Positions 1 to 10,530 of a stretch of DNA of 10,530 bases are shown in pieces. Location: IMG/VR virus record IMGVR_UViG_3300029241_000040, one strand, 5' to 3'. This DNA comes from a virus. Taxonomy: Duplodnaviria; Heunggongvirae; Uroviricota; Caudoviricetes. Position numbers and translations under genes: made by a program. Position 1 is the first letter of the stretch. Each line of letters opens with the position of its first letter. The notes below the pieces were generated by a model. The model was given only the letters and a program-made list of their open reading frames with translations, made no database searches and had not been told where the DNA came from.

Positions 1-83
1 ATCGGTGGAGCTGCATGACAAAGTCATCGGGCATTATCTGAACATAAAACACTATCAATAAGTTGGAGTCATTACCGCAATGA

Positions 84-902
<819 letters not shown>

Positions 903-1571: not shown

Positions 1572-1597
1572 TTTTCATAAACGTTGGTTTGGGAGAA
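1572..1597. repeat. Invertase crossover site (hix/gix-like 26-bp site), pin-proximal
   Basis: ttttcataaacgttggtttgggagaa fits the recalled family consensus TTnTCnnAAACCnnGGTTTnnGAnAA. It matches the reverse complement of 3429-3454 at 20 of 26 positions, including 14 of 14 in the inner half. Confidence 0.8.
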
Positions 1598-2059
1598 GGT
1601 GCTCCAGCTATTGGCGTTCCGTTCTTCTGGCCGTCCGCTGCAATGCCAAATACTGTAATCGACAGCTGGTCCGGTATGGTGTTTTTGAAGTTCAACGGCG
1701 CGAAATTCTCTGCCACTGATTACCCTGTGCTGGCGAAAGTGTTTCCTTCGCTGGTATTACCTGAAGCCCGCGGTGATTTCATTCGTATCTGGGATGATGG
1801 TCGTGGTGTAGATAGTGGACGTGGATTACTTAGTACGCAGTCTGACCTGATGAAACAATTTACTTTGCAATACTACGGTCCTTCTGCTGGTACTGGAACA
1901 AGAACGGTTTTCGCCCTCCAGAGTAATGCGAACGGCATATATACGAGTGGTATTAGTCAGAATGATGGTAGTGGCACCGCTGCGGCTTTTAATGTACCAG
2001 GCGGCACCGAAACACGCCCACGTAACATTGCATTCAACTTTTTAGTAAGGGCTAAATAA
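1586..2059 (+). CDS. Silent alternative tail-fibre C-terminal segment (Sv'-like); promoterless until inversion
   Basis: Reading frame is open from the crossover site. The GLGE codons (ggt ttg gga gaa, 1586-1597) are identical to those at 3429-3440 on the minus strand, so inversion would fuse this segment in frame to the constant N-terminus. The first 14 residues of track ORF 1544-2059 lie before or across the site and are not expected to be translated. Confidence 0.7.
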   Translation, partial: GLGEGAPAIGVPFFWPSAAMPNTVIDSWSGMVFLKFNGAKFSATDYPVLAKVFPSLVLPEARGDFIRIWDDGRGVDSGRGLLSTQSDLMKQFTLQYYGPSAGTGTRTVFALQSNANGIYTSGISQNDGSGTAAAFNVPGGTETRPRNIAFNFLVRAK

Positions 2060-2652
2060 TGAAACCTGTTTTTGATAAAAATGGGCTGGCTACAGTACCG
2101 GGTGATATGCGTTGTTTTTATTATGATGCAGTAACGTCTGAATATACTGGCTGGTCTGATGAATATATTAATACTGGTGTAAGTATGCCCGCCTGTTCCA
2201 CTGGTATTGACCCGGGCGAATACATTCCGGGGAAAGTGGCAGTATTTACGGGTAAGGGATGGAGCCATGAAGAAGACCACCGCAATGAGACTGCTTACTC
2301 AATCGAAAATGGCGCAGCTGTTACAGTGGATTATATCGGTGCCATCAAAGACGGTTATGTCACGCTTTCACCGTTAACGCCATACGATAAATGGGATGGT
2401 GAGAAATGGGTGACAGATACTGAGGCACAGCATAGTGCCTCAGTAGACGCGGCAGAAGCACAGCGCCAGTCGCTGATTGATGCTGCAATGGCTTCCATCA
2501 GTCTGATTCAACTGAAATTGCAGGCCGGGCGGAAGCTGACGCAGGCAGAAACAACCCGACTTAACGCCGTGCTGGATTACATTGACGCGGTGACGGCAAC
2601 AGATACCAGCACCGCGCCGGATATCATCTGGCCTGAACAGCCGGAGGCGTAG
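2059..2652 (+). CDS. tfa: Tail fibre assembly chaperone, alternative cassette (Tfa/U'-like, 197 aa)
   Basis: ATG overlaps the stop of the preceding fibre segment (TAATG). The C-terminal motif DTSTAPDIIWPEQPE is characteristic of Mu U / Tfa chaperones. Confidence 0.8.
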   Translation: MKPVFDKNGLATVPGDMRCFYYDAVTSEYTGWSDEYINTGVSMPACSTGIDPGEYIPGKVAVFTGKGWSHEEDHRNETAYSIENGAAVTVDYIGAIKDGYVTLSPLTPYDKWDGEKWVTDTEAQHSASVDAAEAQRQSLIDAAMASISLIQLKLQAGRKLTQAETTRLNAVLDYIDAVTATDTSTAPDIIWPEQPEA

Positions 2653-3064
2653 GCCATTCAATATCTGGAGCACTGGAAGTATCGACCAGTTCCAGTGCGT
2701 CAAGATAATCCAGCCATAAATTATATTGCGCCAGTTCCTCACCTTTCAGACGACCAATAGCAGCCTTTCCTGGCCACTGCTTACTGTTAATATATTCATT
2801 AACTCGATTTATGAGTGCCTGTTTTTTTCGTTCCGCTTCTGACAGTTGTTCTTCATGAGTTAGCGGCGGTACGTCATCCCATGCAGGATAGCCATCATCA
2901 CCCGCAACTCTCACTTTCCCTGGAGGTGGGGACAGGTACTTAATAAATATATCCTCATCAACTTCAACTCCATTATGAGGCCATAACCCAGACTTCTTAT
3001 ACTGACTTTCCAGAGTAAATGGGTAAAACATATTAGTTTTAGCATCGTAAAGATATTTACTCAT
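2624..3064 (-). CDS. tfa: Tail fibre assembly chaperone, currently expressed cassette (Tfa/U-like, 146 aa)
   Basis: Start chosen at the internal Met (MSKYLYDAKTNMFYPF...), 1 nt downstream of the fibre stop codon. The C-terminal motif DTSSAPDIEWP matches the Tfa family. The ORF-track start at 3163 would overlap the fibre gene. Confidence 0.8.
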   Translation of the reverse strand: MSKYLYDAKTNMFYPFTLESQYKKSGLWPHNGVEVDEDIFIKYLSPPPGKVRVAGDDGYPAWDDVPPLTHEEQLSEAERKKQALINRVNEYINSKQWPGKAAIGRLKGEELAQYNLWLDYLDALELVDTSSAPDIEWPTPPAVQAR

Positions 3065-3065
3065 T

Positions 3066-3731
3066 TTATCTTCCTGTGGCAAACCAGCGGCAACCAGCGA
3101 CAGTTGGAACATTGAAGGATGGATTTCCTTTATCAAGAGATCCCAGGTTATCTGCCATGACACTTGAGTTAGTCAATTGATAGAATTGCCATACTGACAT
3201 TTTCCCTGGCACAGGAGCATGGTCATGTTCATTAATAGAAATGACGCCTGTCGGAAATGGGATAGGAAAATTAATCAAAACTTCATTTATTGTGGCCCCA
3301 GTTAGCCCCCATTGTTCAATATAACCATCCGGGCTTCGCCTCCATCCCGTCGTTGTATCTCCCCCACACTCCCACGCTGACATATCAGGAATTTGGTTTT
3401 GCCCGTTACCCACATCCCGTTTTGCCGCTTCTCCCAAACCAAGGTTTTCGAGAGCCGTTTTCACGGTGCCATCCGATTTGATATCGCCAAACGGATTCTT
3501 GCGGCTTAACAGCAGCGCACGAAGCGCGGTAAGCAGCTGGTCATGCCGCCCCTTCTCCAGGCTGGCACCGGATGCCTCCACCACGCCACAAAGCTCTTCC
3601 TGCAACATGTCAAAGTAGTCATCATCCAGATCGGTGGCAGGCGTGCCGGTCTGGGGGTTACCACGGGTAAAACCGTTCTTACCCGCGCCGAACTTATCCT
3701 TCTGCGCGGTTTTCGTGTCTATACGATGCAT
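3066..3731 (-). CDS. stf: Short tail fibre protein (221 aa; constant N-terminus of about 96 aa plus variable C-terminus in the current orientation)
   Basis: Position between the gp48-like gene and tfa. A crossover site lies inside the gene at the codons for ENLGLGE. The variable part sits inside the invertible segment. Length resembles the short fibres of e14-like elements. Confidence 0.8.
3429..3454. repeat. Invertase crossover site (hix/gix-like 26-bp site) inside the tail fibre gene
   Basis: ttctcccaaaccaaggttttcgagag closely resembles the recalled hixL sequence and the family consensus. It is in inverted orientation relative to 1572-1597. Confidence 0.8.
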
Positions 3732-3734
3732 GGA

Positions 3735-4319
3735 TTACTCCGGATATTTAAAAATTACGTAGGTATGCGACGGGCAGAGTTTGTTAAGCACACACTCGAC
3801 AACGGTGTCACCCCAGATACGCAGTGCGGAATCACAGGGATCGCCACATGTCATCCAGGTGGTGTTGGTGGCGGCTGGCATGTTGACCTGCCAGTAATAC
3901 CGCCATTCCGGCGCATTCACCGCGTCAGTACAGGCCGATGAGCAGGTGAACGTGCTTTTGTCGTATCGCGTGATGGTGGCATCTGGTCTGCCCAGGGCAG
4001 CAAGCTGTGCAAGATAAAAATCCTCGTTGATGCCGCCCGCCAGGTTAACCTTCGCATCCAGCCGTTGCTGACGCTGGCGAAGGGTCTGCGTTCCCGCCGG
4101 AATACATTCATCCGGCAGACCGCACAGACGCTCCCAGCGGTTTATCAGTTCAGTGGTGGTGCGCGGATCCAGCTCCCGCATCAGGGCATCCGCACGCTGA
4201 TGAACACGGGTTAATGACGGTGCCGCACCGGCAATCGCCGGATCGCTGGCTGACCACGCCGGACCGGGCGGCAACAGTGCCGATAACAGGCGGATGTAAT
4301 CATCGTTTGTCACGTCCAT
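3735..4319 (-). CDS. Mu gp48-like / YmfQ-like baseplate protein (DUF2313, 194 aa)
   Basis: N-terminus [22 protein letters not shown] is the typical start of this family. It lies directly upstream of the tail fibre gene. Confidence 0.75.
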
Positions 4320-5368
4320 GAAATCGTCCCCAGTACCGCCAGTTCGTTTTTCGCAATGGAGATATTGTCCACCGGTGCAAGCAACTGATGGCTGTATTCC
4401 CCGTTCGCACCGGAAATCGCCTCACTGATACGCGATACCTTCAGTTCTCCCTGCGGATAACCATCACGCAGCAGGAACGAACGCAACTCCGCGGTAATGG
4501 CAGCCCGTATTTCCGGTGTGTCCGGCGTCACGCGGATATGAAAATCCACCGTATGTGCCACCGGCCTGAATACATACAAATCAGAGCCTGCCACCGGGGC
4601 CAGTGGCCCGATATGTTGTCTTGCTGCCGTTTCCGTTGATTCTTCCGGAATGGGATTAATCAGGTCACTGCTGGCAATCATCACACCGACAGTTCCCGTT
4701 CCCATCCAGTGACGGTATGTCCATGCGCGGGTAATGCCGGGCACTTCTTTAGCCCAGACGACATAGTCCCCGTCAGCCCCGCCCTGAGGCGTCCAGTAAT
4801 ACCGCTCAATGACGCGGGCGCGCCACGTTTCCAGCTCTTCAGTATCAAATCCGCCTGTAAGGGTATCTGCCACGCCGGAAGACGGCAGACCATTAACCGG
4901 CGTGACCAGGATTAATGACGTACCGTCGTCAGCGTTACCGACCGCGCCTGCACTTGAGCAGGCGATCGGCACGCGCAGGACACCACCGGAGCTGGTTGCA
5001 TCGGCAGTTGCCGTGTACTGAACCAGGTCATCGCGCTGAATAACACTCCCGGCGGTCACCTTCAGGCCATCGCTGACACCTTCCCAACGCATATACCCGC
5101 TGGCAGCCGTGGCCCCCTTGCGCGGACACCGTTTCATCGCAGCATGTCGCGCCAGCCAGGACTCATCGCACAGGTCAGGCAGCATGTTCATTGCCAGATA
5201 ATCGATGTACCCGTAAACCGTATGCAGCGCCGCCGCATACACCTTTGCCCGCACGTCTTCATCCATGCGCCGGAGCGTGTCGCTGACGTCCAGCCTGGCG
5301 AATAAATCGTTACGGAGCATACTGATATTTTCTGCCAGCGTCGGGCGCTGAAATTCACTGTCCGCCAT
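4310..5368 (-). CDS. Baseplate J-like protein (Mu gp47-like, 352 aa)
   Basis: Size and position within the Mu-order baseplate block. Its stop region overlaps the downstream gene start by 10 nt. Confidence 0.75.
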
Positions 5369-5783
5369 GCGTTATCGCACTCCACAGATCATCAAAAGAA
5401 ATCATTACCGGTCCGTCACGACGCCAGAGGGTGATACTGTTACCCAGCTCATTAATCCCGGTGCGGCGGATATCCAGATCAATACGGGACACCACGCCGT
5501 CATCAATCATCCATTGCAGGCATTCGCGGATATACCCCCTTACTGTCTGCACCAGCTGATTGGTCAGTTTGCTGCGCTGAAGCAGCCACAGTCGGGAGCC
5601 GTAACGGTCATTCTGTACCGCAGGCCAGGTATCCCCCCACCATCCCATCGGGACGTCGGCGTTGTCATCAGGCTCCGCCCGCCGCCAGGTAAACAGGGAA
5701 ATCACCACGGCGCGGGTCAGCGGATCCAGCGGTGCGCTGGCGCAGGTGCGTTTACCGTTCACCGTCAGCCACAGTTCCATCAT
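5355..5783 (-). CDS. Mu gp46-like baseplate protein (gp25/W-like, 142 aa)
   Basis: Size and order match Mu gp46. It overlaps its neighbours, suggesting translational coupling. Confidence 0.7.
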   Translation of the reverse strand: MMELWLTVNGKRTCASAPLDPLTRAVVISLFTWRRAEPDDNADVPMGWWGDTWPAVQNDRYGSRLWLLQRSKLTNQLVQTVRGYIRECLQWMIDDGVVSRIDLDIRRTGINELGNSITLWRRDGPVMISFDDLWSAITHGGQ

Positions 5784-6328
5784 GCCTCCATCGCTTTATC
5801 CGGTTTGTCGGTGTTACTGCCCTGACCGTTCTCTCTGTGACGATGCCCGTTATAGGCAAGCCGCATCGCTGACATGGTAGTGCCGCTGGAGTCGCACAGG
5901 TCTTTCACCTGTCCTGTCACTTCCAGGTCCATTTCAAAACGTGCTTTAGGTGAATTGCGAAACGTGATCGTTTTACCTGCACCGTCCACCACGATCCCCT
6001 CCCGGGTCAGCGTCACAGACTGCCCCTGATCGTCATAGACAGCCACCTCACCCGTCTGCAACCCTTTCAGGCGGTAGCGCCGGTCCGACACCGTAACAAC
6101 CACCGCATGAGAACGGTCGCCATCCGGAAACAACACCACCGCTTCCGCACCGCTGTTTGCCCTTGCGGTAAAACCGTAGGGTTCAAGATGTTCAACCCCG
6201 GCTTTGGGTTCACCGGCAATCAGGGACACATCCACGGTCTGACATTTCGTGGCGGCACTGATGCTTTTCACCACTGCCCGCGCAATCAGGCCGAGAAGTT
6301 GTCGCTGCATGGCTTCAATCGTCCTCAT
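5780..6328 (-). CDS. Baseplate assembly protein V-like / Mu gp45-like spike (182 aa)
   Basis: Size and order match Mu gp45. Its start overlaps the upstream stop in an ATGA arrangement. Confidence 0.7.
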   Translation of the reverse strand: MRTIEAMQRQLLGLIARAVVKSISAATKCQTVDVSLIAGEPKAGVEHLEPYGFTARANSGAEAVVLFPDGDRSHAVVVTVSDRRYRLKGLQTGEVAVYDDQGQSVTLTREGIVVDGAGKTITFRNSPKARFEMDLEVTGQVKDLCDSSGTTMSAMRLAYNGHRHRENGQGSNTDKPDKAMEA

Positions 6329-7407
6329 CAGAACGGGTCCTCCTGTACTCTGGCTTTTTTCTTTTTCCGCGCGCCGGGGGCTTCGGGTTCAGGCAGATAA
6401 GCATCAGGCGGGCCGACACGGATTTCCGTCAGGGTGCCGTTCTGGTCCTGAGTAAACGTGACTTCCGAGACAAGCAGTTCGGTATTGTCGAAACCACAGA
6501 CCGGATCAAAGACAATCACCCGCTGGTTGGGCTGCCACAGCGTACCGTTACCCTGTCGCCAGCCCTGCACCACATAGGTGGTTTCATCCGTCCGCGCCGC
6601 CCGTTGTCGGGCTTCAAAGTCAGCACGCGCAATACAGCCTGCCCCCGTGGCCTGCCCTGTCTGCCTGATATACATCGGACGGTAACGGGCAATAAATGCG
6701 TCCTCTGTGCGGGCCCGCAGCGCGGTGGTGGTGACCTCACCGAAATCATCGTCGTTTCCGGCACGCTGCCCCGCCACCTGGTAAACAGAAAACCGCTCCC
6801 GGATACTCTTCTCCGTATCGCAGGAAAGGATGTTTTCCCCAAGTACCAGCGCGGTATGTGCCCGCGTTGAGCCAATACCGCCAATCACCAGCCTGCCGTG
6901 CGGGTCGTCGTAAGCCAGCGCCTGCTGCTGACCGAGTATTTTGTTTATTACCTCAATCACCGTTTCACCGTGATCAGGCTGAACATCAGGAATAACACCC
7001 GACGGCGCACCGCTGTTCACCACCTCAATGCCGAAAGGCGCAGCAAGCGCCTGCGCAATCTGCACCAGCGAGCGTCCGTTAAACTGTGTCGGTTCGGCTG
7101 CACAGTCAATCAGGTCAGCCGTCAGACTACGTCCGGCAATACCGGTGCTGACCGAACGGGCATCGTAACGAACGGGCGTCGCCTCCACCCAGCCGGTGAT
7201 CACCAGCTCATCACCAATCAGCACTTCCACTTTTGAACCGTTTTTAATGCGCGGCTGAAGCGTGGTGATACCCTCATCTCCCGGCCACTGGCGGGTGATC
7301 TCCACACTGAAATCCCGCGCCAGCCGTTCAATACCGGCACCGATGCGCACCGATGTCCAGCCATTCCACTCCCGGCCATTTACCCGTAGCGTGACATTGT
7401 CGTTCAT
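6328..7407 (-). CDS. Mu gp44-like baseplate hub protein (Phage_GPD-like, 359 aa)
   Basis: Size and order match Mu gp44 (P). The start overlaps the upstream gene by 4 nt. Confidence 0.7.
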   Translation of the reverse strand: MNDNVTLRVNGREWNGWTSVRIGAGIERLARDFSVEITRQWPGDEGITTLQPRIKNGSKVEVLIGDELVITGWVEATPVRYDARSVSTGIAGRSLTADLIDCAAEPTQFNGRSLVQIAQALAAPFGIEVVNSGAPSGVIPDVQPDHGETVIEVINKILGQQQALAYDDPHGRLVIGGIGSTRAHTALVLGENILSCDTEKSIRERFSVYQVAGQRAGNDDDFGEVTTTALRARTEDAFIARYRPMYIRQTGQATGAGCIARADFEARQRAARTDETTYVVQGWRQGNGTLWQPNQRVIVFDPVCGFDNTELLVSEVTFTQDQNGTLTEIRVGPPDAYLPEPEAPGARKKKKARVQEDPF

Positions 7408-8558
7408 TGCACTGGCACCTTCAGAGGGATCACCGGCACAAAGCCGGGATGCGTAATGGCATTACGCCGGATAATGTCCGCGTCACGCGCCGCGTTATCA
7501 AACCAGGTCGCCGCCAGCACCAGCGCGGGTAAAACCTCATCCGGCGTGCGCTGAATGATCCGTGCAGACTGTTCAAGGCGCGTGTTGATATCCGCATTCA
7601 GATCTGCTTTCACCCGGCGCAGCACCAGAAACAGCGCATCACTGGTTGTACGGGACAACTCCTTATCAATTGCCGTATTCAGTGTGTCGCGAATGTCGGT
7701 CAGTTCTTCCCACGTTGGCAGGTCAACCGTGTTTTTCACCGCCGGTGCATTGTTCAGTGCCGGATGCGTGACAGAAGGCCAGCCGGTGCTCTGCGCGGGT
7801 GTTGTTGACTGCCCCACTGTGGCATTCTGCATCACCGCGGAAGTTGTGGGCGCAGGCAATCGTGTGACGACATACGCCGCTTCGCTGATTGCGGTCGTAC
7901 GAAGGGTGCTGGCAACCACGTTACGCTGCTGCGTCGCCGTGGCGGTGGTTTTACTGTCCGTTTTCCAGACGCCGCGCGGTTGCAGATCGCTGCCAAGGCT
8001 GACACCGGAAAGCGTTTTGATCATGGTGACCAGGTCGCTGGCGTTACCATAAAGGCGTTTCCCGGTACGCCACATTTTCTGCACCTGCTCAACGAAATTT
8101 TTGCCTGACGATGGCGGCGGAAGAAGTACCGAGATATCCCCCTGCAACAGCCTGGCGGCATCCGATACGGCAGAATCCACCACTTTCATCGCATCAGAAA
8201 CATACCCAAGCATTGTGCCGACATTACCGACGACGTCGTTCTGCACAAAATCTGCCACGCCATCGATACTGAAACCGCTGAAGCTGTCACTGATGCAGTC
8301 ATCCAGTGCAGAACAGGATGACATCAGCGTCTGCGCCGTCGCCACGCCTGATGTGGGGTAAGAGAGATCTCCCGCTTCGACAAACTTCAGGTCAAAGCGG
8401 ACAATACGCCCTTCACTCTTCGATGTGCTGACCCGAACTTCCCCGTCAACACAGACTTTCAACTCACCGTATGTCGGGTGGACAAGCGTGCCGGGACCGG
8501 GTTTATTCAGCGCGTCAATCAGGCGATCGCGCTGGTCAAAGCAGTCATCTCCCACCAC
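7404..8558 (-). CDS. Mu N (gp43)-like DNA circularisation protein, N-terminally truncated remnant (GTG start; homology continues upstream to about 8660 with no start codon)
   Basis: QRDRLIDALNKPGPGTLVHPTYGELKV matches the conserved N-domain motif of the Mu N family. The same frame upstream reads ...AEDLGKVTF... back to a TAG at 8661-8663 without ATG, GTG or TTG. The expected ASFRGVPF / GGRR / HEFP N-terminal motifs are absent. Confidence 0.65.
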   Translation of the reverse strand: MVGDDCFDQRDRLIDALNKPGPGTLVHPTYGELKVCVDGEVRVSTSKSEGRIVRFDLKFVEAGDLSYPTSGVATAQTLMSSCSALDDCISDSFSGFSIDGVADFVQNDVVGNVGTMLGYVSDAMKVVDSAVSDAARLLQGDISVLLPPPSSGKNFVEQVQKMWRTGKRLYGNASDLVTMIKTLSGVSLGSDLQPRGVWKTDSKTTATATQQRNVVASTLRTTAISEAAYVVTRLPAPTTSAVMQNATVGQSTTPAQSTGWPSVTHPALNNAPAVKNTVDLPTWEELTDIRDTLNTAIDKELSRTTSDALFLVLRRVKADLNADINTRLEQSARIIQRTPDEVLPALVLAATWFDNAARDADIIRRNAITHPGFVPVIPLKVPVQ

Positions 8559-9247
8559 ATAAGCCGTGATGGACGGGCGGAAAGTGACTTTTCCCAGATC
8601 TTCGGCAGGTCTGGTACCAGCTTCTGGACATGATTCCGCGCCAGTGTGGTTGGTAAACGGCTAAATCGGTTTCCATTGCAACGCCCACAAATCTTATAAA
8701 CAGGCGTGCCATGAAGCCGGGTCCTTTTTTCATCCAGGACAATACCTTTACCCTTACACCCTCTGCACGCTGTGCTGACTTCTCCCTTACCATGACAATG
8801 CTGACATAGTTCCTTCACCCACTCTTCCTTGATAACAGATTCCCCGCTTCTGGAGTGTTTCACCACCTCGCGCAATACATTATGAAATCCAGTACCAGCA
8901 CAATGCTCACAGCGAGCCTTACTTGCCGCAGACCTGGAATAATCAGCAAAGGCAAAATTCACAAGGTAAGGGATGATCTGTAACCGGATTTCTTCACTCA
9001 ATTTGTTCAATGTCGGGTTATCCAGTGCCATCGCGTAATTGAGCAGACCTTCAATCGCAAACTGAGGATCCTGAACACCAACTTTTGCCAGGAATAAGGC
9101 AAACCCAAGCGGTGCTTTCGACTGCACCATCCCCTGCGCAGCCATCACATCTGTAATTGTTAAACCACCCGAGCCTGTCGCCGGTGCGTCATCACTCAAT
9201 TTTGGAGATTTTGGGGAGTAATATTTTGGTAAAGCTTCAAGGTTCAT
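8519..9247 (-). CDS. Q-like late antiterminator (QuuQ-type, 242 aa) with a cysteine-rich zinc-finger region
   Basis: Four CxxCxGxG-type repeats (CEHCAGTG, CQHCHGKG, CRGCKGKG, CGRCNGNR). Position downstream of DUF968 and KilA-C genes matches the lambdoid nin to Q arrangement. The sequence resembles my recollection of Qin-prophage QuuQ, which is unverified. Confidence 0.6.
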   Translation of the reverse strand: MNLEALPKYYSPKSPKLSDDAPATGSGGLTITDVMAAQGMVQSKAPLGFALFLAKVGVQDPQFAIEGLLNYAMALDNPTLNKLSEEIRLQIIPYLVNFAFADYSRSAASKARCEHCAGTGFHNVLREVVKHSRSGESVIKEEWVKELCQHCHGKGEVSTACRGCKGKGIVLDEKRTRLHGTPVYKICGRCNGNRFSRLPTTLARNHVQKLVPDLPKIWEKSLSARPSRLMWWEMTALTSAIA

Positions 9248-9260
9248 GCTCGTTCTCCAC

Positions 9261-10256
9261 TTACGCCAGTACGCCTATTGCCAGCGCACGATCGATAAAA
9301 CGAAATATCAGCTCCAGCTGGGAGCCATACTTCTCTTCAAATGCCACGGTATCCGCATGCAGCTCGTCGTGATGCTTTCTGCACAAAGGCAACACAAAGA
9401 GGTCATGCGCTTTTGTACCCATCCCACCCTGACCGTGGCCTATCAGGTGGTGGGGATCATCAGCAGGCTTTCCACAACATGCACACGGCTGTGTCTTAAC
9501 CCAGCGCGTGTACTTTTCATTAACCCAGCGGCGACGTTTTGGGCGTAACATAAAAGACTCCGGCGACTCCGGATCCACTTTCAGCGCCAGCACCTTTTTC
9601 GCCTTATCCTGGATGATGCTGGTGGCAGGAACCGAAGGCACAAGGTCACTTTCCCGGGTGACAGACGGCACAACAGGCTTCGGTAATCTCAGTGCCTTAC
9701 GGGCTGCACTTTCCGGTAAGGCATCCGCCAGGTCATTACGAATCAGCCACCAGCACAGTTCCGGCATTGTCACAACGTGACTGTCATCAAAACCGAGATC
9801 CCGACGCACAACAGACAACACCCAGCGGGCACAGTTATCCGTTGCCATTGATTCCAGCCGTTCCGTGAACTGATCGCGCAGCTGGTTATCGCAGTGCCAG
9901 CACAGACGGATTGCACCCGGAGCGTGTCGCATTGTGGTCATGTTCTCGCTGTGCCAGTCGGAATGAGGCCACTGGCAGCCTTTTTCACGAAGTAACCAGC
10001 TTTCAAGACATTCCACGCCACCAGCACGACGGATCACTGCCTCATTGCGGAACACGGCCAGAACGGCAGGATCATCCGCCAGCGGTTGTGATGCCGCCGG
10101 AACGGCACCACTGGCGAAAGATGAATAACGCTCCGGCTCAGGCTCCAGCAGGACACGCCCCTGCATAAACAGGGGCATCAGCTCTGAACCTGGTCTGAAC
10201 AATACGATCCCCATACGCGGGGCAATTTCAGGGGTCAGTAGTGCTCTCACGGTCAC
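9261..10256 (-). CDS. DUF968-family lambdoid prophage protein with a C-terminal HNH-like motif (YdfU-like, 331 aa)
   Basis: C-terminal CACCGKPADDPHHLIGHGQGG...LCRKHHDELH has the Cys and His spacing of an HNH / zinc-binding motif. It lies immediately upstream of the Q-like gene. Confidence 0.6.
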   Translation of the reverse strand: MTVRALLTPEIAPRMGIVLFRPGSELMPLFMQGRVLLEPEPERYSSFASGAVPAASQPLADDPAVLAVFRNEAVIRRAGGVECLESWLLREKGCQWPHSDWHSENMTTMRHAPGAIRLCWHCDNQLRDQFTERLESMATDNCARWVLSVVRRDLGFDDSHVVTMPELCWWLIRNDLADALPESAARKALRLPKPVVPSVTRESDLVPSVPATSIIQDKAKKVLALKVDPESPESFMLRPKRRRWVNEKYTRWVKTQPCACCGKPADDPHHLIGHGQGGMGTKAHDLFVLPLCRKHHDELHADTVAFEEKYGSQLELIFRFIDRALAIGVLA

Positions 10257-10257
10257 C

Positions 10258-10530
10258 TCAATGAACGGTATCGAGCAGCTTTAACAGCTCAGGGAATCGG
10301 GATTCGAAGAAATGCGGCTGCGTCTCGCGCGGATTTGCGGGACTGGTGATGTTCTTGCCGAACATGCAACCTTTCGCTGTCAGCGACCAGAATTTTTTGA
10401 TGTTGTTAATCGTGGTACGGCTGTATCGTTCGCGCTGCTCGACGATCCCCAGCTTCACCATCTGGTGATATGCCTGATTAGCTGTCAGGCGGATACCATA
10501 CTGCTTCAGCAGTGCACTCAGTGACAGCGT
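10258..10530 (-). CDS. KilA-C / antirepressor-like protein (Roi-like), C-terminal fragment; the gene continues past the right edge of the window
   Basis: The reading frame is open from the window edge: TLSLSALLKQYGIRLTANQAYHQMVKLGIVEQRERYSRTTINNIKKFWSLTAKG... It resembles the KilA-C domain in lambdoid nin regions. The ORF-track Met at 10461 is internal. Confidence 0.5.
   Translation of the reverse strand, partial: TLSLSALLKQYGIRLTANQAYHQMVKLGIVEQRERYSRTTINNIKKFWSLTAKGCMFGKNITSPANPRETQPHFFESRFPELLKLLDTVH

What the first reader, a model, noticed from the sequence alone, without database searches (positions are those of the whole stretch)
8519..8700. Recombination junction: Q-like gene 3' end overlaps a 5'-truncated Mu N-like gene
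The N/gp43-like reading frame shows family-typical sequence (EDLG ... GDD-QRD-LIDAL-GPGTLVHP) but loses its open frame at a TAG at 8661-8663, with no start codon upstream of the GTG at 8556-8558. The family N-terminal motifs are missing. In another frame, the last 45 or so residues of the Q-like ORF are encoded by this same DNA. The lambdoid-to-Mu-like mosaic join therefore appears to lie within about 8560-8700, and the Q C-terminal tail may be junction-derived. The normal Q-dependent late promoter and qut site downstream of Q are probably absent.
Basis: partly seen in the sequence, partly recalled or inferred. Interest (0 to 1): 0.45.

Follow-up and report, generated by a model that had tools for sequence, protein, structure and literature searches.

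The report
Deletion scar in decayed SfV-like prophage
The overlap of a Q antiterminator gene with a headless Mu N-like gene is the scar of one roughly 15 kb deletion inside an SfV-type E. coli prophage, which left two pseudogenes; this is ordinary prophage decay and is already flagged in public annotation.

Summary
A lambda-type Q gene (minus strand, start 9247) and a Mu N / SfV orf15-type "DNA circularization" gene (minus strand, stop 7404) abut at window 8605|8606.

The interpretation needs correcting. This is not a join between a lambdoid phage and a Mu-like phage. Both flanks are about 98% identical to, and collinear with, a single phage, Shigella phage SfV. Intact E. coli SfV/e14-like prophages carry the same Q and N genes 15-16 kb apart.

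The window therefore holds an internal deletion. It removes:
- Q codons 215-250
- the region downstream of Q, which holds SfV's putative terminator and, by lambda analogy, the late promoter/qut
- the lysis genes, cos, terminase and head genes
- tail sheath, tube and tape measure
- N codons 1-47

The join has no microhomology. Q keeps 214 authentic residues and then reads 28 junk residues from N-gene DNA out of frame. N lacks Pfam PF07157 positions 1-30.

RefSeq (PGAP) already annotates both as incomplete pseudogenes in the only two complete E. coli genomes that carry the junction (2 of 5426). The exact chimeric protein also occurs in many draft and metagenome assemblies, so the scar is real and present in many independent assemblies. 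It is ordinary and of low interest.

The parts
8606..9247 (-). Q' : authentic part of a lambda-type antitermination protein Q gene (ydfT/SfV Q type), codons 1-214 of 250
   Evidence: PF03589 Antiterm E=9.7e-42. Residues 1-214 are 98% identical to the 250-aa YdfT/Q of L003 and L004, and identity stops after ...VPDL. Homology to SfV Q ends at SfV nt 33457. Homologous to lambda Q, PDB 7UBM, E=9e-31. PGAP: 'antitermination protein, incomplete, missing C-terminus'.
8519..8605 (-). Junk tail of the Q' ORF: 28 codons plus stop. This is N-gene DNA read in the wrong frame (PKIWEKSLSARPSRLMWWEMTALTSAIA*).
   Evidence: This DNA is 96-98% identical to the 5' part of intact N genes. The translated tail has no similarity to the C-terminus of intact Q.
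8605..8606 (.). Deletion breakpoint (novel joint). N-derived DNA ends at 8605 and Q-derived DNA begins at 8606. There is no microhomology.
   Evidence: With SfV the two HSPs abut exactly at 8605|8606. The ungapped comparisons with L003 and L004 show N-parent ...TCTTCGG|TATAGG and Q-parent ...ATCCGT|CAGGTC, giving window ...TCTTCGG|CAGGTC. PGAP ends the two pseudogenes at the equivalents of window 8603 and 8606. The junction 33-mer is present in all 10 junction-bearing loci fetched.
7404..8605 (-). N' : 5'-truncated Mu N / SfV orf15-type 'DNA circularization protein' gene. It lacks the first 47 codons by SfV numbering. The longest remaining ORF starts at the GTG at 8556-8558 (384 aa).
   Evidence: PF07157 matches profile positions 31-88 only. 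The alignment with intact N of L002 (442 aa), L003 (457 aa) and SfV (447 aa) begins at EDLGK. PGAP: 'DNA circularization protein, incomplete, missing N-terminus'.
6328..7407 (-). Intact Mu P / gp44-type baseplate hub gene, next gene downstream of N'. Its start overlaps the N' stop.
   Evidence: Pfam GpP-like_1st, Gp44-like_2nd and GpP_4th. Collinear with SfV orf16.
9261..10256 (-). DUF968 / putative HNH gene (ydfU / SfV orf45 type), next gene upstream of Q'
   Evidence: PF06147 E=3.5e-81. This gene lies next to Q in L002-L004 and in SfV.

Best explanation
The window is a piece of a decayed SfV/e14-like prophage of Escherichia coli. This phage group combines lambdoid regulatory genes, an HK97-type head and a Mu-like contractile tail.

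A single illegitimate (non-homologous) deletion of about 15 kb joined codon 214 of the late-gene antiterminator gene Q directly to codon 48 of the tail/baseplate gene N (SfV orf15, Mu gp43-like). Everything between them in the prophage order was lost:
- the last 36 codons of Q
- the segment downstream of Q that in SfV carries a putative terminator and, by analogy with lambda, the Q-dependent late promoter/qut
- holin, endolysin and spanins
- cos and terminase
- portal, protease and capsid
- head-tail connectors
- tail sheath, tube and tape measure
- the first 47 codons of N

Both genes at the scar are pseudogenes. Q' lacks the equivalent of lambda Q residues 172-207. That segment holds the last helix of the four-helix body and HTH, the NusA contact and the flap-tip-helix contact. 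It is replaced by 28 nonsense residues. N' lacks its conserved N-terminal segment and its own start.

The element can no longer lyse, package DNA or build a head or tail.

Shown: the breakpoint, the parental arrangement, the extent of the deletion, and the presence of the scar in many assemblies. Inferred: loss of function of Q' and N', and the mechanism of joining (end-joining-like or replication-slippage-like illegitimate recombination).
For: - Both flanks map to one phage. Window 3381-8605 equals SfV 17021-11797 (97.7%) and window 8606-10530 equals SfV 33457-31533 (97.8%). The matches abut with no gap or overlap.
- SfV annotation places Q at 32816-33568, a putative terminator at 33675-33710, then lysis genes, the genome end, terminase...tape measure, and orf15 ('similar to phage Mu DNA circulation protein N') at 11655-12998.
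- Intact E. coli prophages L003 and L004 carry the same Q (250 aa) and N (457/458 aa) at 97-98% DNA identity to the window. They are separated by 16,244 and 14,800 bp of lysis, terminase, head and tail genes.
- The breakpoint sequences show no shared bases at the join.
- Protein alignments: Q identity stops at residue 214, and N identity starts at EDLGK.
- Pfam: DNA_circ_N matches profile positions 31-88 only.
- Alignment to lambda Q (7UBM): window residue 214 corresponds to lambda Q residue 171.
- Lambda Q body = residues 61-113 and 153-207. The HTH is formed by H4 and H5. NusA contacts residues 182-197. L202 and T206 are needed for antitermination (PMC9388147).
- PGAP marks both genes as incomplete pseudogenes in strains E4 and TUM10008.
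- The junction is not an assembly artefact. The identical 33-mer occurs in two complete genomes and eight independent metagenome or draft contigs. The exact 242-aa chimeric protein is indexed in 163 blocks of the assembly collection.
- SfV-group phages are described as lambdoid myoviruses that share morphogenesis genes with e14 and integrate at thrW next to proA (PMC3636060). Locus L013 shows the remnant's integrase directly beside genes whose Pfam hits fit proB and proA (AA_kinase+PUA, then Aldedh).
Against: No result contradicts the deletion reading.

Open points:
- The exact parent genome is unknown. The best matches are 97-98% identical, not 100%, so the deleted length (14.8-16.2 kb) is an estimate.
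- Loss of function of Q' is inferred from lambda Q structure and genetics. It was not tested for this protein.
- The 384-aa N' ORF from the GTG at 8556 is open, and its translation cannot be excluded.
Confidence: 0.93

Rival explanations
1. One reading: the site is the mosaic boundary where a lambdoid phage (the Q side) recombined with a Mu-like phage (the N side), creating a new hybrid.
For: Q is a lambda-Q homologue. The genes from N onward are Mu gp43-gp48 homologues. Read in isolation, the window looks like two phage types abutting.
Against: The same lambdoid plus Mu-like combination exists, uninterrupted, in phage SfV and in intact prophages L002-L004, with 15-18 kb of late genes between Q and N. 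Both flanks are equally similar (97.7% and 97.8%) to that single genome and keep its order and orientation. Both genes are broken in mid-domain, which is the signature of a deletion and not of a module exchange at a gene boundary.
Confidence: 0.04
2. Assembly artefact: a chimeric short-read contig that joins two prophage regions through a repeat.
For: The ends of the window behave like contig ends in repeats. Positions 1-63 match the end of an IS1 copy. Positions 9912-10530 follow a different allele from all the other junction-bearing copies.
Against: The 8605|8606 joint is 100% identical in two complete chromosomes (E4, TUM10008) and in eight independent contigs from ENA, NCBI and Logan. No repeat is shared by the two parental breakpoints that could mislead an assembler.
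Confidence: 0.01
3. The fusion is a retained, functional rearrangement. Under this reading Q' still acts in trans on other prophages, or the deletion places the baseplate, fibre and Pin genes under upstream (early) transcription, and the remnant is kept by selection.
For: The exact chimeric protein is indexed in 163 collection blocks. The downstream genes P, V, gp46, J, gp48 and the fibre genes are still called as full-length ORFs in every copy. The fibre segment is found in both orientations among copies, so Pin has been active since the remnant formed.
Against: Q' lacks the segment that in lambda Q holds part of the HTH, the NusA contact and residues required for antitermination. A baseplate without sheath, tube and tape measure has no known function. 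The wide occurrence is equally explained by clonal inheritance. Only 2 of 5426 complete genomes carry it.
Confidence: 0.03

Closest known systems
Shigella flexneri temperate phage SfV (NC_003444 / U82619) and its relatives SfI and SfII
   Same: Same genes in the same order at about 98% DNA identity: orf44 (KilA-N type), orf45 (DUF968), Q, and then orf15 (Mu N-like), orf16-orf20 (Mu P and gp45-48-like) and the tail fibre genes. The same lambdoid-regulation plus Mu-like-tail architecture is described in the literature (PMC3636060).
   Different: The window lacks SfV nt 33458-37074 and 1-11796. These hold the Q 3' end, the putative terminator, lysis genes, cos, packaging genes, head genes, sheath, tube, tape measure and the N 5' end. 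The window carries a Pin invertase with an invertible fibre segment and a GIY-YIG gene where SfV has gtrABV.
E. coli K-12 defective prophage e14
   Same: An SfV-related remnant that keeps baseplate genes, ymfQ, tail fibre genes and pinE and has lost much of the late region. PGAP gene names in the relatives (ymfQ, ymfR, ymfK, ymfL, ymfT, tfaE, pinE) are e14 names. e14 is reported as a close relative of SfV and SfI. The e14 gene content stated here is from my own knowledge and was not tested.
   Different: This is an independent decay event with a different breakpoint (Q::N) and a different chromosomal site. L013 places this remnant next to genes that fit proB and proA, the site reported for SfI/SfV integration at thrW. 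I did not compare e14 breakpoints here.
Qin prophage ydfT (quuQ)-ydfU gene pair of E. coli K-12
   Same: The Q' and DUF968 genes are about 92% identical in DNA to K-12 ydfT-ydfU (H19).
   Different: K-12 ydfT is full length. In one search the K-12 match covers only the Q side of the query (window 8602-9300) and carries no N-derived tail.
Bacteriophage lambda Q antiterminator (PDB 7UBM, 4MO1)
   Same: Clear sequence homologue: E=9e-31, covering the N-terminal torus-forming region, the zinc ribbon and the start of the C-terminal body.
   Different: The ydfT/SfV type has an extra insertion with a second CXXC-type motif (DnaJ_CXXCXGXG-like hit). The copy in the window is cut at the equivalent of lambda Q residue 171/172.

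Membership tests
Lambda-type antitermination protein Q (Pfam PF03589; lambda Q / SfV Q / YdfT) | Significant match to the family profile and to lambda Q itself | tested here: met
   PF03589 E=9.7e-42, 141.5 bits against a cutoff of 26.7. Lambda Q 7UBM E=9e-31.
Lambda-type antitermination protein Q (Pfam PF03589; lambda Q / SfV Q / YdfT) | Complete C-terminal body (lambda Q residues 153-207: H4-H5 HTH, NusA contact 182-197, FTH contacts 202 and 206) | tested here: not met
   Family identity ends at residue 214, which corresponds to lambda Q 171. The last 36 residues of the 250-aa homologues are replaced by 28 unrelated residues. It is a truncated member, that is, a pseudogene.
Lambda-type antitermination protein Q (Pfam PF03589; lambda Q / SfV Q / YdfT) | Late promoter, Q-binding element and terminator immediately downstream, followed by the lysis and morphogenesis operon | tested here: not met
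   The DNA that follows Q in SfV (33569 onward, including the putative terminator at 33675-33710 and the S, R, Rz genes) lies inside the deleted interval. No promoter or qut was mapped experimentally in SfV. Their presence there is inferred by analogy with lambda.
Lambda-type antitermination protein Q (Pfam PF03589; lambda Q / SfV Q / YdfT) | Antitermination activity | not testable with these tools
   This needs a reporter or in vitro transcription assay.
Mu N (gp43) / SfV orf15 'DNA circularization protein' (Pfam PF07157 DNA_circ_N) | Match to the family's N-terminal domain profile | tested here: met
   PF07157 E=1.2e-16, 61.4 bits against a cutoff of 21. 97.7% DNA identity to SfV orf15.
Mu N (gp43) / SfV orf15 'DNA circularization protein' (Pfam PF07157 DNA_circ_N) | Full-length N-terminus (profile positions 1-30; conserved W..L..ASFRGVPF.VE...GRR...HEYP.RD.P) with its own start codon | tested here: not met
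   Only profile positions 31-88 are matched. The intact homologues have 43-58 more N-terminal residues. The frame is closed by a TAG in Q-derived DNA, and the first possible start is an internal GTG.
Mu N (gp43) / SfV orf15 'DNA circularization protein' (Pfam PF07157 DNA_circ_N) | Position between the tape measure gene and the Mu P-like baseplate hub gene | tested here: not met
   The downstream neighbour (P-like, 6328-7407) is present, but the tape measure gene upstream is deleted.
SfV/e14-like temperate phage (lambdoid regulation, HK97-type head, Mu-like contractile tail) | Collinearity and high identity with SfV across the retained modules | tested here: met
   Two collinear blocks at 97.7% and 97.8%. 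The same neighbours are present as in L002-L004.
SfV/e14-like temperate phage (lambdoid regulation, HK97-type head, Mu-like contractile tail) | Complete late region (lysis, terminase, portal, capsid, sheath, tube, tape measure) | tested here: not met
   All of these genes lie in the deleted interval. None is present in the window or in the 20-kb flanks of the junction in E4. It is a defective remnant, not a phage.

The most novel reading that the evidence does not exclude
The Q'::N' scar is not neutral. By removing the terminator and late promoter, the deletion would fuse the baseplate, tail-fibre and Pin genes to upstream transcription, and the remnant would be kept as a domesticated module. 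Alternatively, the truncated Q with its new 28-residue tail would retain or alter activity in trans on co-resident SfV/Qin-type prophages. The intact downstream ORFs, the evidence that Pin inverted the fibre segment after the remnant formed, and the exact chimeric protein in 163 collection blocks do not exclude this.
Probability: 0.04. Interest if true: 0.35.

Novelty: already known. Interest (0 to 1): 0.08.

Why it matters
It matters little beyond correct annotation. The region should be labelled as two pseudogenes at a deletion scar in a defective SfV-like prophage, and the 242-aa and 384-aa ORFs should not be treated as bona fide proteins or as a new Q variant. The case shows that an apparent "mosaic join" between phage types can be an internal deletion within a phage family that is already mosaic. 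The exact 33-bp joint could serve as a lineage marker for E. coli strains that carry this remnant.

Tried and rejected
1. Repeat-mediated or microhomology-mediated deletion. I compared both parental breakpoints base by base. There are no shared bases at the join, only an imperfect TTCGG/TCCGT resemblance, so a repeat or site-specific mechanism is not supported.
2. A natural short N or a natural 242-aa Q. Both are rejected by alignments with homologues that are 97-98% identical in DNA and encode longer proteins, and by the Pfam profile coordinates.
3. Assembly artefact. I considered this because the window's ends look like contig ends. It is rejected because the joint is identical in complete genomes and independent assemblies.
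4. Source of the window. I checked whether it is E4 or TUM10008. It is neither exactly: E4 has an IS3 between the GIY-YIG gene and pinE, and both differ from the window at 9912-10530 and at 1-76.
5. Searches not run. I did not run the large homologue searches, structure prediction or collection scans. The DNA comparisons were already decisive, so the cost was not justified.

Full report
**1. What is in the sequence**

On the minus strand the window encodes, from right to left:
- a DUF968/HNH-like gene (9261-10256)
- a 242-aa ORF (8519-9247) that hits Pfam PF03589 'Antitermination protein Q' (E=9.7e-42)
- a 384-aa ORF (7404-8558) that starts with GTG and hits PF07157 'DNA circularisation protein N-terminus'
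- a Mu P/gp44-type baseplate hub gene (6328-7407), followed by Mu gp45-48-like baseplate genes, tail fibre genes, a Pin-type invertase and a GIY-YIG gene (the Pfam names of the downstream genes are seen)

Translating the N frame upstream of the GTG gives ...PAEDLGKVTFRPSITAYVVGDDCFDQRDRLIDALNKPGPGTLVHP... This frame is closed by a TAG (plus-strand CTA at 8661-8663). The Pfam match covers only profile positions 31-88 of 88.

**2. Where the junction is**

A megablast of window 8200-9300 against 5,426 complete E. coli genomes gave two non-overlapping classes of partial match:
- about 2,900 records match either the Q side (query 403/404-1101, which is window 8602/8603-9300) or the N side (query 1-406, which is window 8200-8605)
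- only two genomes cover both sides

Direct BLAST of the window against fetched loci and against phage SfV fixes the joint:
- Window 3381-8605 equals SfV 17021-11797 (97.7%).
- Window 8606-10530 equals SfV 33457-31533 (97.8%).
- The two matches abut exactly at 8605|8606 (the same result comes from L002-L004).

Base-by-base comparison of the breakpoints:
- N parent: ...CCCAGATCTTCGG|TATAGG...
- Q parent: ...GATAATCCGT|CAGGTCTGG...
- Window: ...CCCAGATCTTCGG|CAGGTCTGG...

There is no microhomology at the join. This fits illegitimate recombination and does not fit a repeat-mediated or site-specific event.

**3. What the parental arrangement is**

The 'unjoined' state exists in single elements. 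In E. coli FDAARGOS_1059 (L003) and JNU (L004), one prophage carries the following, in order:
- KilA-N, DUF968 and ydfT (Q, 250 aa)
- holin, endolysin and lysis genes
- HNH and terminase
- portal, protease and capsid
- connectors
- sheath, tube and tape measure
- DNA circularization protein (N, 457/458 aa)
- baseplate genes

Both halves are 97-98% identical to the window. They are separated by 16,244 bp (L003) or 14,800 bp (L004).

Phage SfV has the same arrangement. Q lies at 32816-33568, followed by a putative rho-independent terminator at 33675-33710, the S/R/Rz genes, the genome end (cos), terminase...tape measure, and orf15 'similar to phage Mu DNA circulation protein N' at 11655-12998. 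In SfV coordinates the window lacks 33458-37074 plus 1-11796, which is 15,413 bp.

SfV, SfI and prophage e14 are described in the literature as related lambdoid myoviruses that share these morphogenesis genes and integrate at thrW next to proA (PMC3636060). One junction-bearing contig (L013) shows the remnant's integrase directly beside genes whose Pfam hits fit proB and proA.

The lambdoid/Mu-like mosaicism is thus an old property of the whole phage group. The event in the window is an internal deletion within one such prophage.

**4. Consequences for the two genes**

Q:
- Residues 1-214 are 98% identical to the intact 250-aa proteins.
- After ...VQKLVPDL the sequence changes to 28 unrelated residues (PKIWEKSLSARPSRLMWWEMTALTSAIA), where the intact proteins have 36 residues (TDYQWYKGYADVIDKLVTKCWQEEAYAEAQLRKVTR).
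- The tail is N-gene DNA read out of frame.
- The protein is a clear homologue of lambda Q (7UBM, E=9e-31). Window residue 214 aligns with lambda Q residue 171.
- In lambda Q, residues 153-207 complete the four-helix body whose helices H4 and H5 form the HTH. Residues 182-197 contact NusA. C-terminal residues 195-207 refold to contact the RNAP flap-tip helix, and L202 and T206 are required for antitermination (PMC9388147).
- Loss of the equivalent segment makes Q' very probably inactive. This step is an inference.

N:
- The first 47 codons (SfV numbering) are gone, and codon 48 is split by the joint. The lost segment includes the conserved W..L..ASFRGVPF.VE...GRR..HEYP.RD.P motif.
- N-derived whole codons begin at EDLGK.
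- The first possible start codon left in the frame is the internal GTG at 8556-8558.

RefSeq's PGAP annotation of strains E4 and TUM10008 already labels the two genes 'incomplete; missing C-terminus' and 'incomplete; missing N-terminus'. Their ends correspond to window 8606 and 8603.

**5. Is the joint real, and how common is it?**

- Only 2 of 5,426 complete E. coli genomes carry it.
- The exact 242-aa chimeric protein is indexed in 163 blocks of the large assembly collection.
- A 33-mer spanning the joint is present in all ten junction-bearing loci fetched: two complete chromosomes and eight ENA, NCBI or Logan contigs. It is absent from the intact prophages.
- It is therefore a genuine scar found in many independent assemblies and not an assembly artefact.

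**6. Verdict**

It is wrong in calling this the lambdoid-to-Mu mosaic boundary.

This is routine prophage decay in a known phage family and is already annotated as pseudogenes. It has low interest and no novelty. The only non-excluded unusual reading is that the remnant or the truncated Q is functionally retained. I give that about 4%.

Noticed in passing
window 1579-3447 (between pinE at 963-1553 and the fibre gene at 3066-3731); compare L007, L009, L011 and L012 with L006: The tail-fibre C-terminus and assembly-gene segment is an invertible cassette. In L007, L009, L011 and L012 window 1579-3447 aligns in the opposite orientation, bounded by about 20-bp overlaps at 1579-1598 and 3428-3447. 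L006 has the window's orientation. The Pin invertase has therefore flipped the segment since the defective remnant formed, so it is or was recently active.
   Followed up: partly
window 10497|10498 and 9912-10530: Every other junction-bearing copy (E4, TUM10008, L006-L010, L013) has a second deletion scar at the equivalent of window 10497. There a 5'-truncated KilA-N gene is joined to DNA upstream of yfdR, and the whole immunity, replication and nin region is removed. The window instead continues after 10497 as intact SfV orf44/KilA-N sequence. It also carries 16 of its 17 mismatches to those copies clustered in 9912-10483. The right end of the window thus follows another allele. This could be gene conversion from a co-resident prophage or a contig end assembled through a repeat.
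   Followed up: partly
window 1-76: Positions 1-63 are identical to the end of an IS1A copy (L005 24109-24171), and homology to the remnant starts at 77. Either an IS1 sits about 50 bp upstream of the GIY-YIG gene in the source strain, or the contig ends in an IS1 repeat. Strain E4 instead has an IS3 inserted between the GIY-YIG gene and pinE, and the window lacks that IS3.
   Followed up: partly
window 129-902 (+), and upstream in L001 and L005: A 257-aa LEM-3-like GIY-YIG nuclease-domain gene sits next to pinE at the end of the remnant. In E4 and TUM10008 it is followed by a type II restriction endonuclease and cytosine methyltransferase pair, and E4 additionally has AbiTii and DUF6650 genes beyond that pair. 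This is a possible cluster of defence genes at the prophage end, where SfV carries gtrABV.
   Followed up: no
L005 19385-22984; L006 and L008 1-3344: Beyond the remnant's integrase and a tRNA-Ser gene lies a second integrase with a pPIWI-associating nuclease-domain gene and a DUF4365 gene. This is a possible prokaryotic Argonaute/PIWI-associated defence island adjacent to the prophage remnant.
   Followed up: no
L002 36380-38582: In the intact relative from E. coli strain 20, the Q gene is of a different, short family (115 aa, 'antiterminator Q family') even though the neighbouring DUF968 gene is the same. Two opposite-strand genes (a nucleoid-associated protein and a hypothetical protein) lie between Q and the holin gene. 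This is an example of Q-module swapping within the SfV-like group.
   Followed up: no
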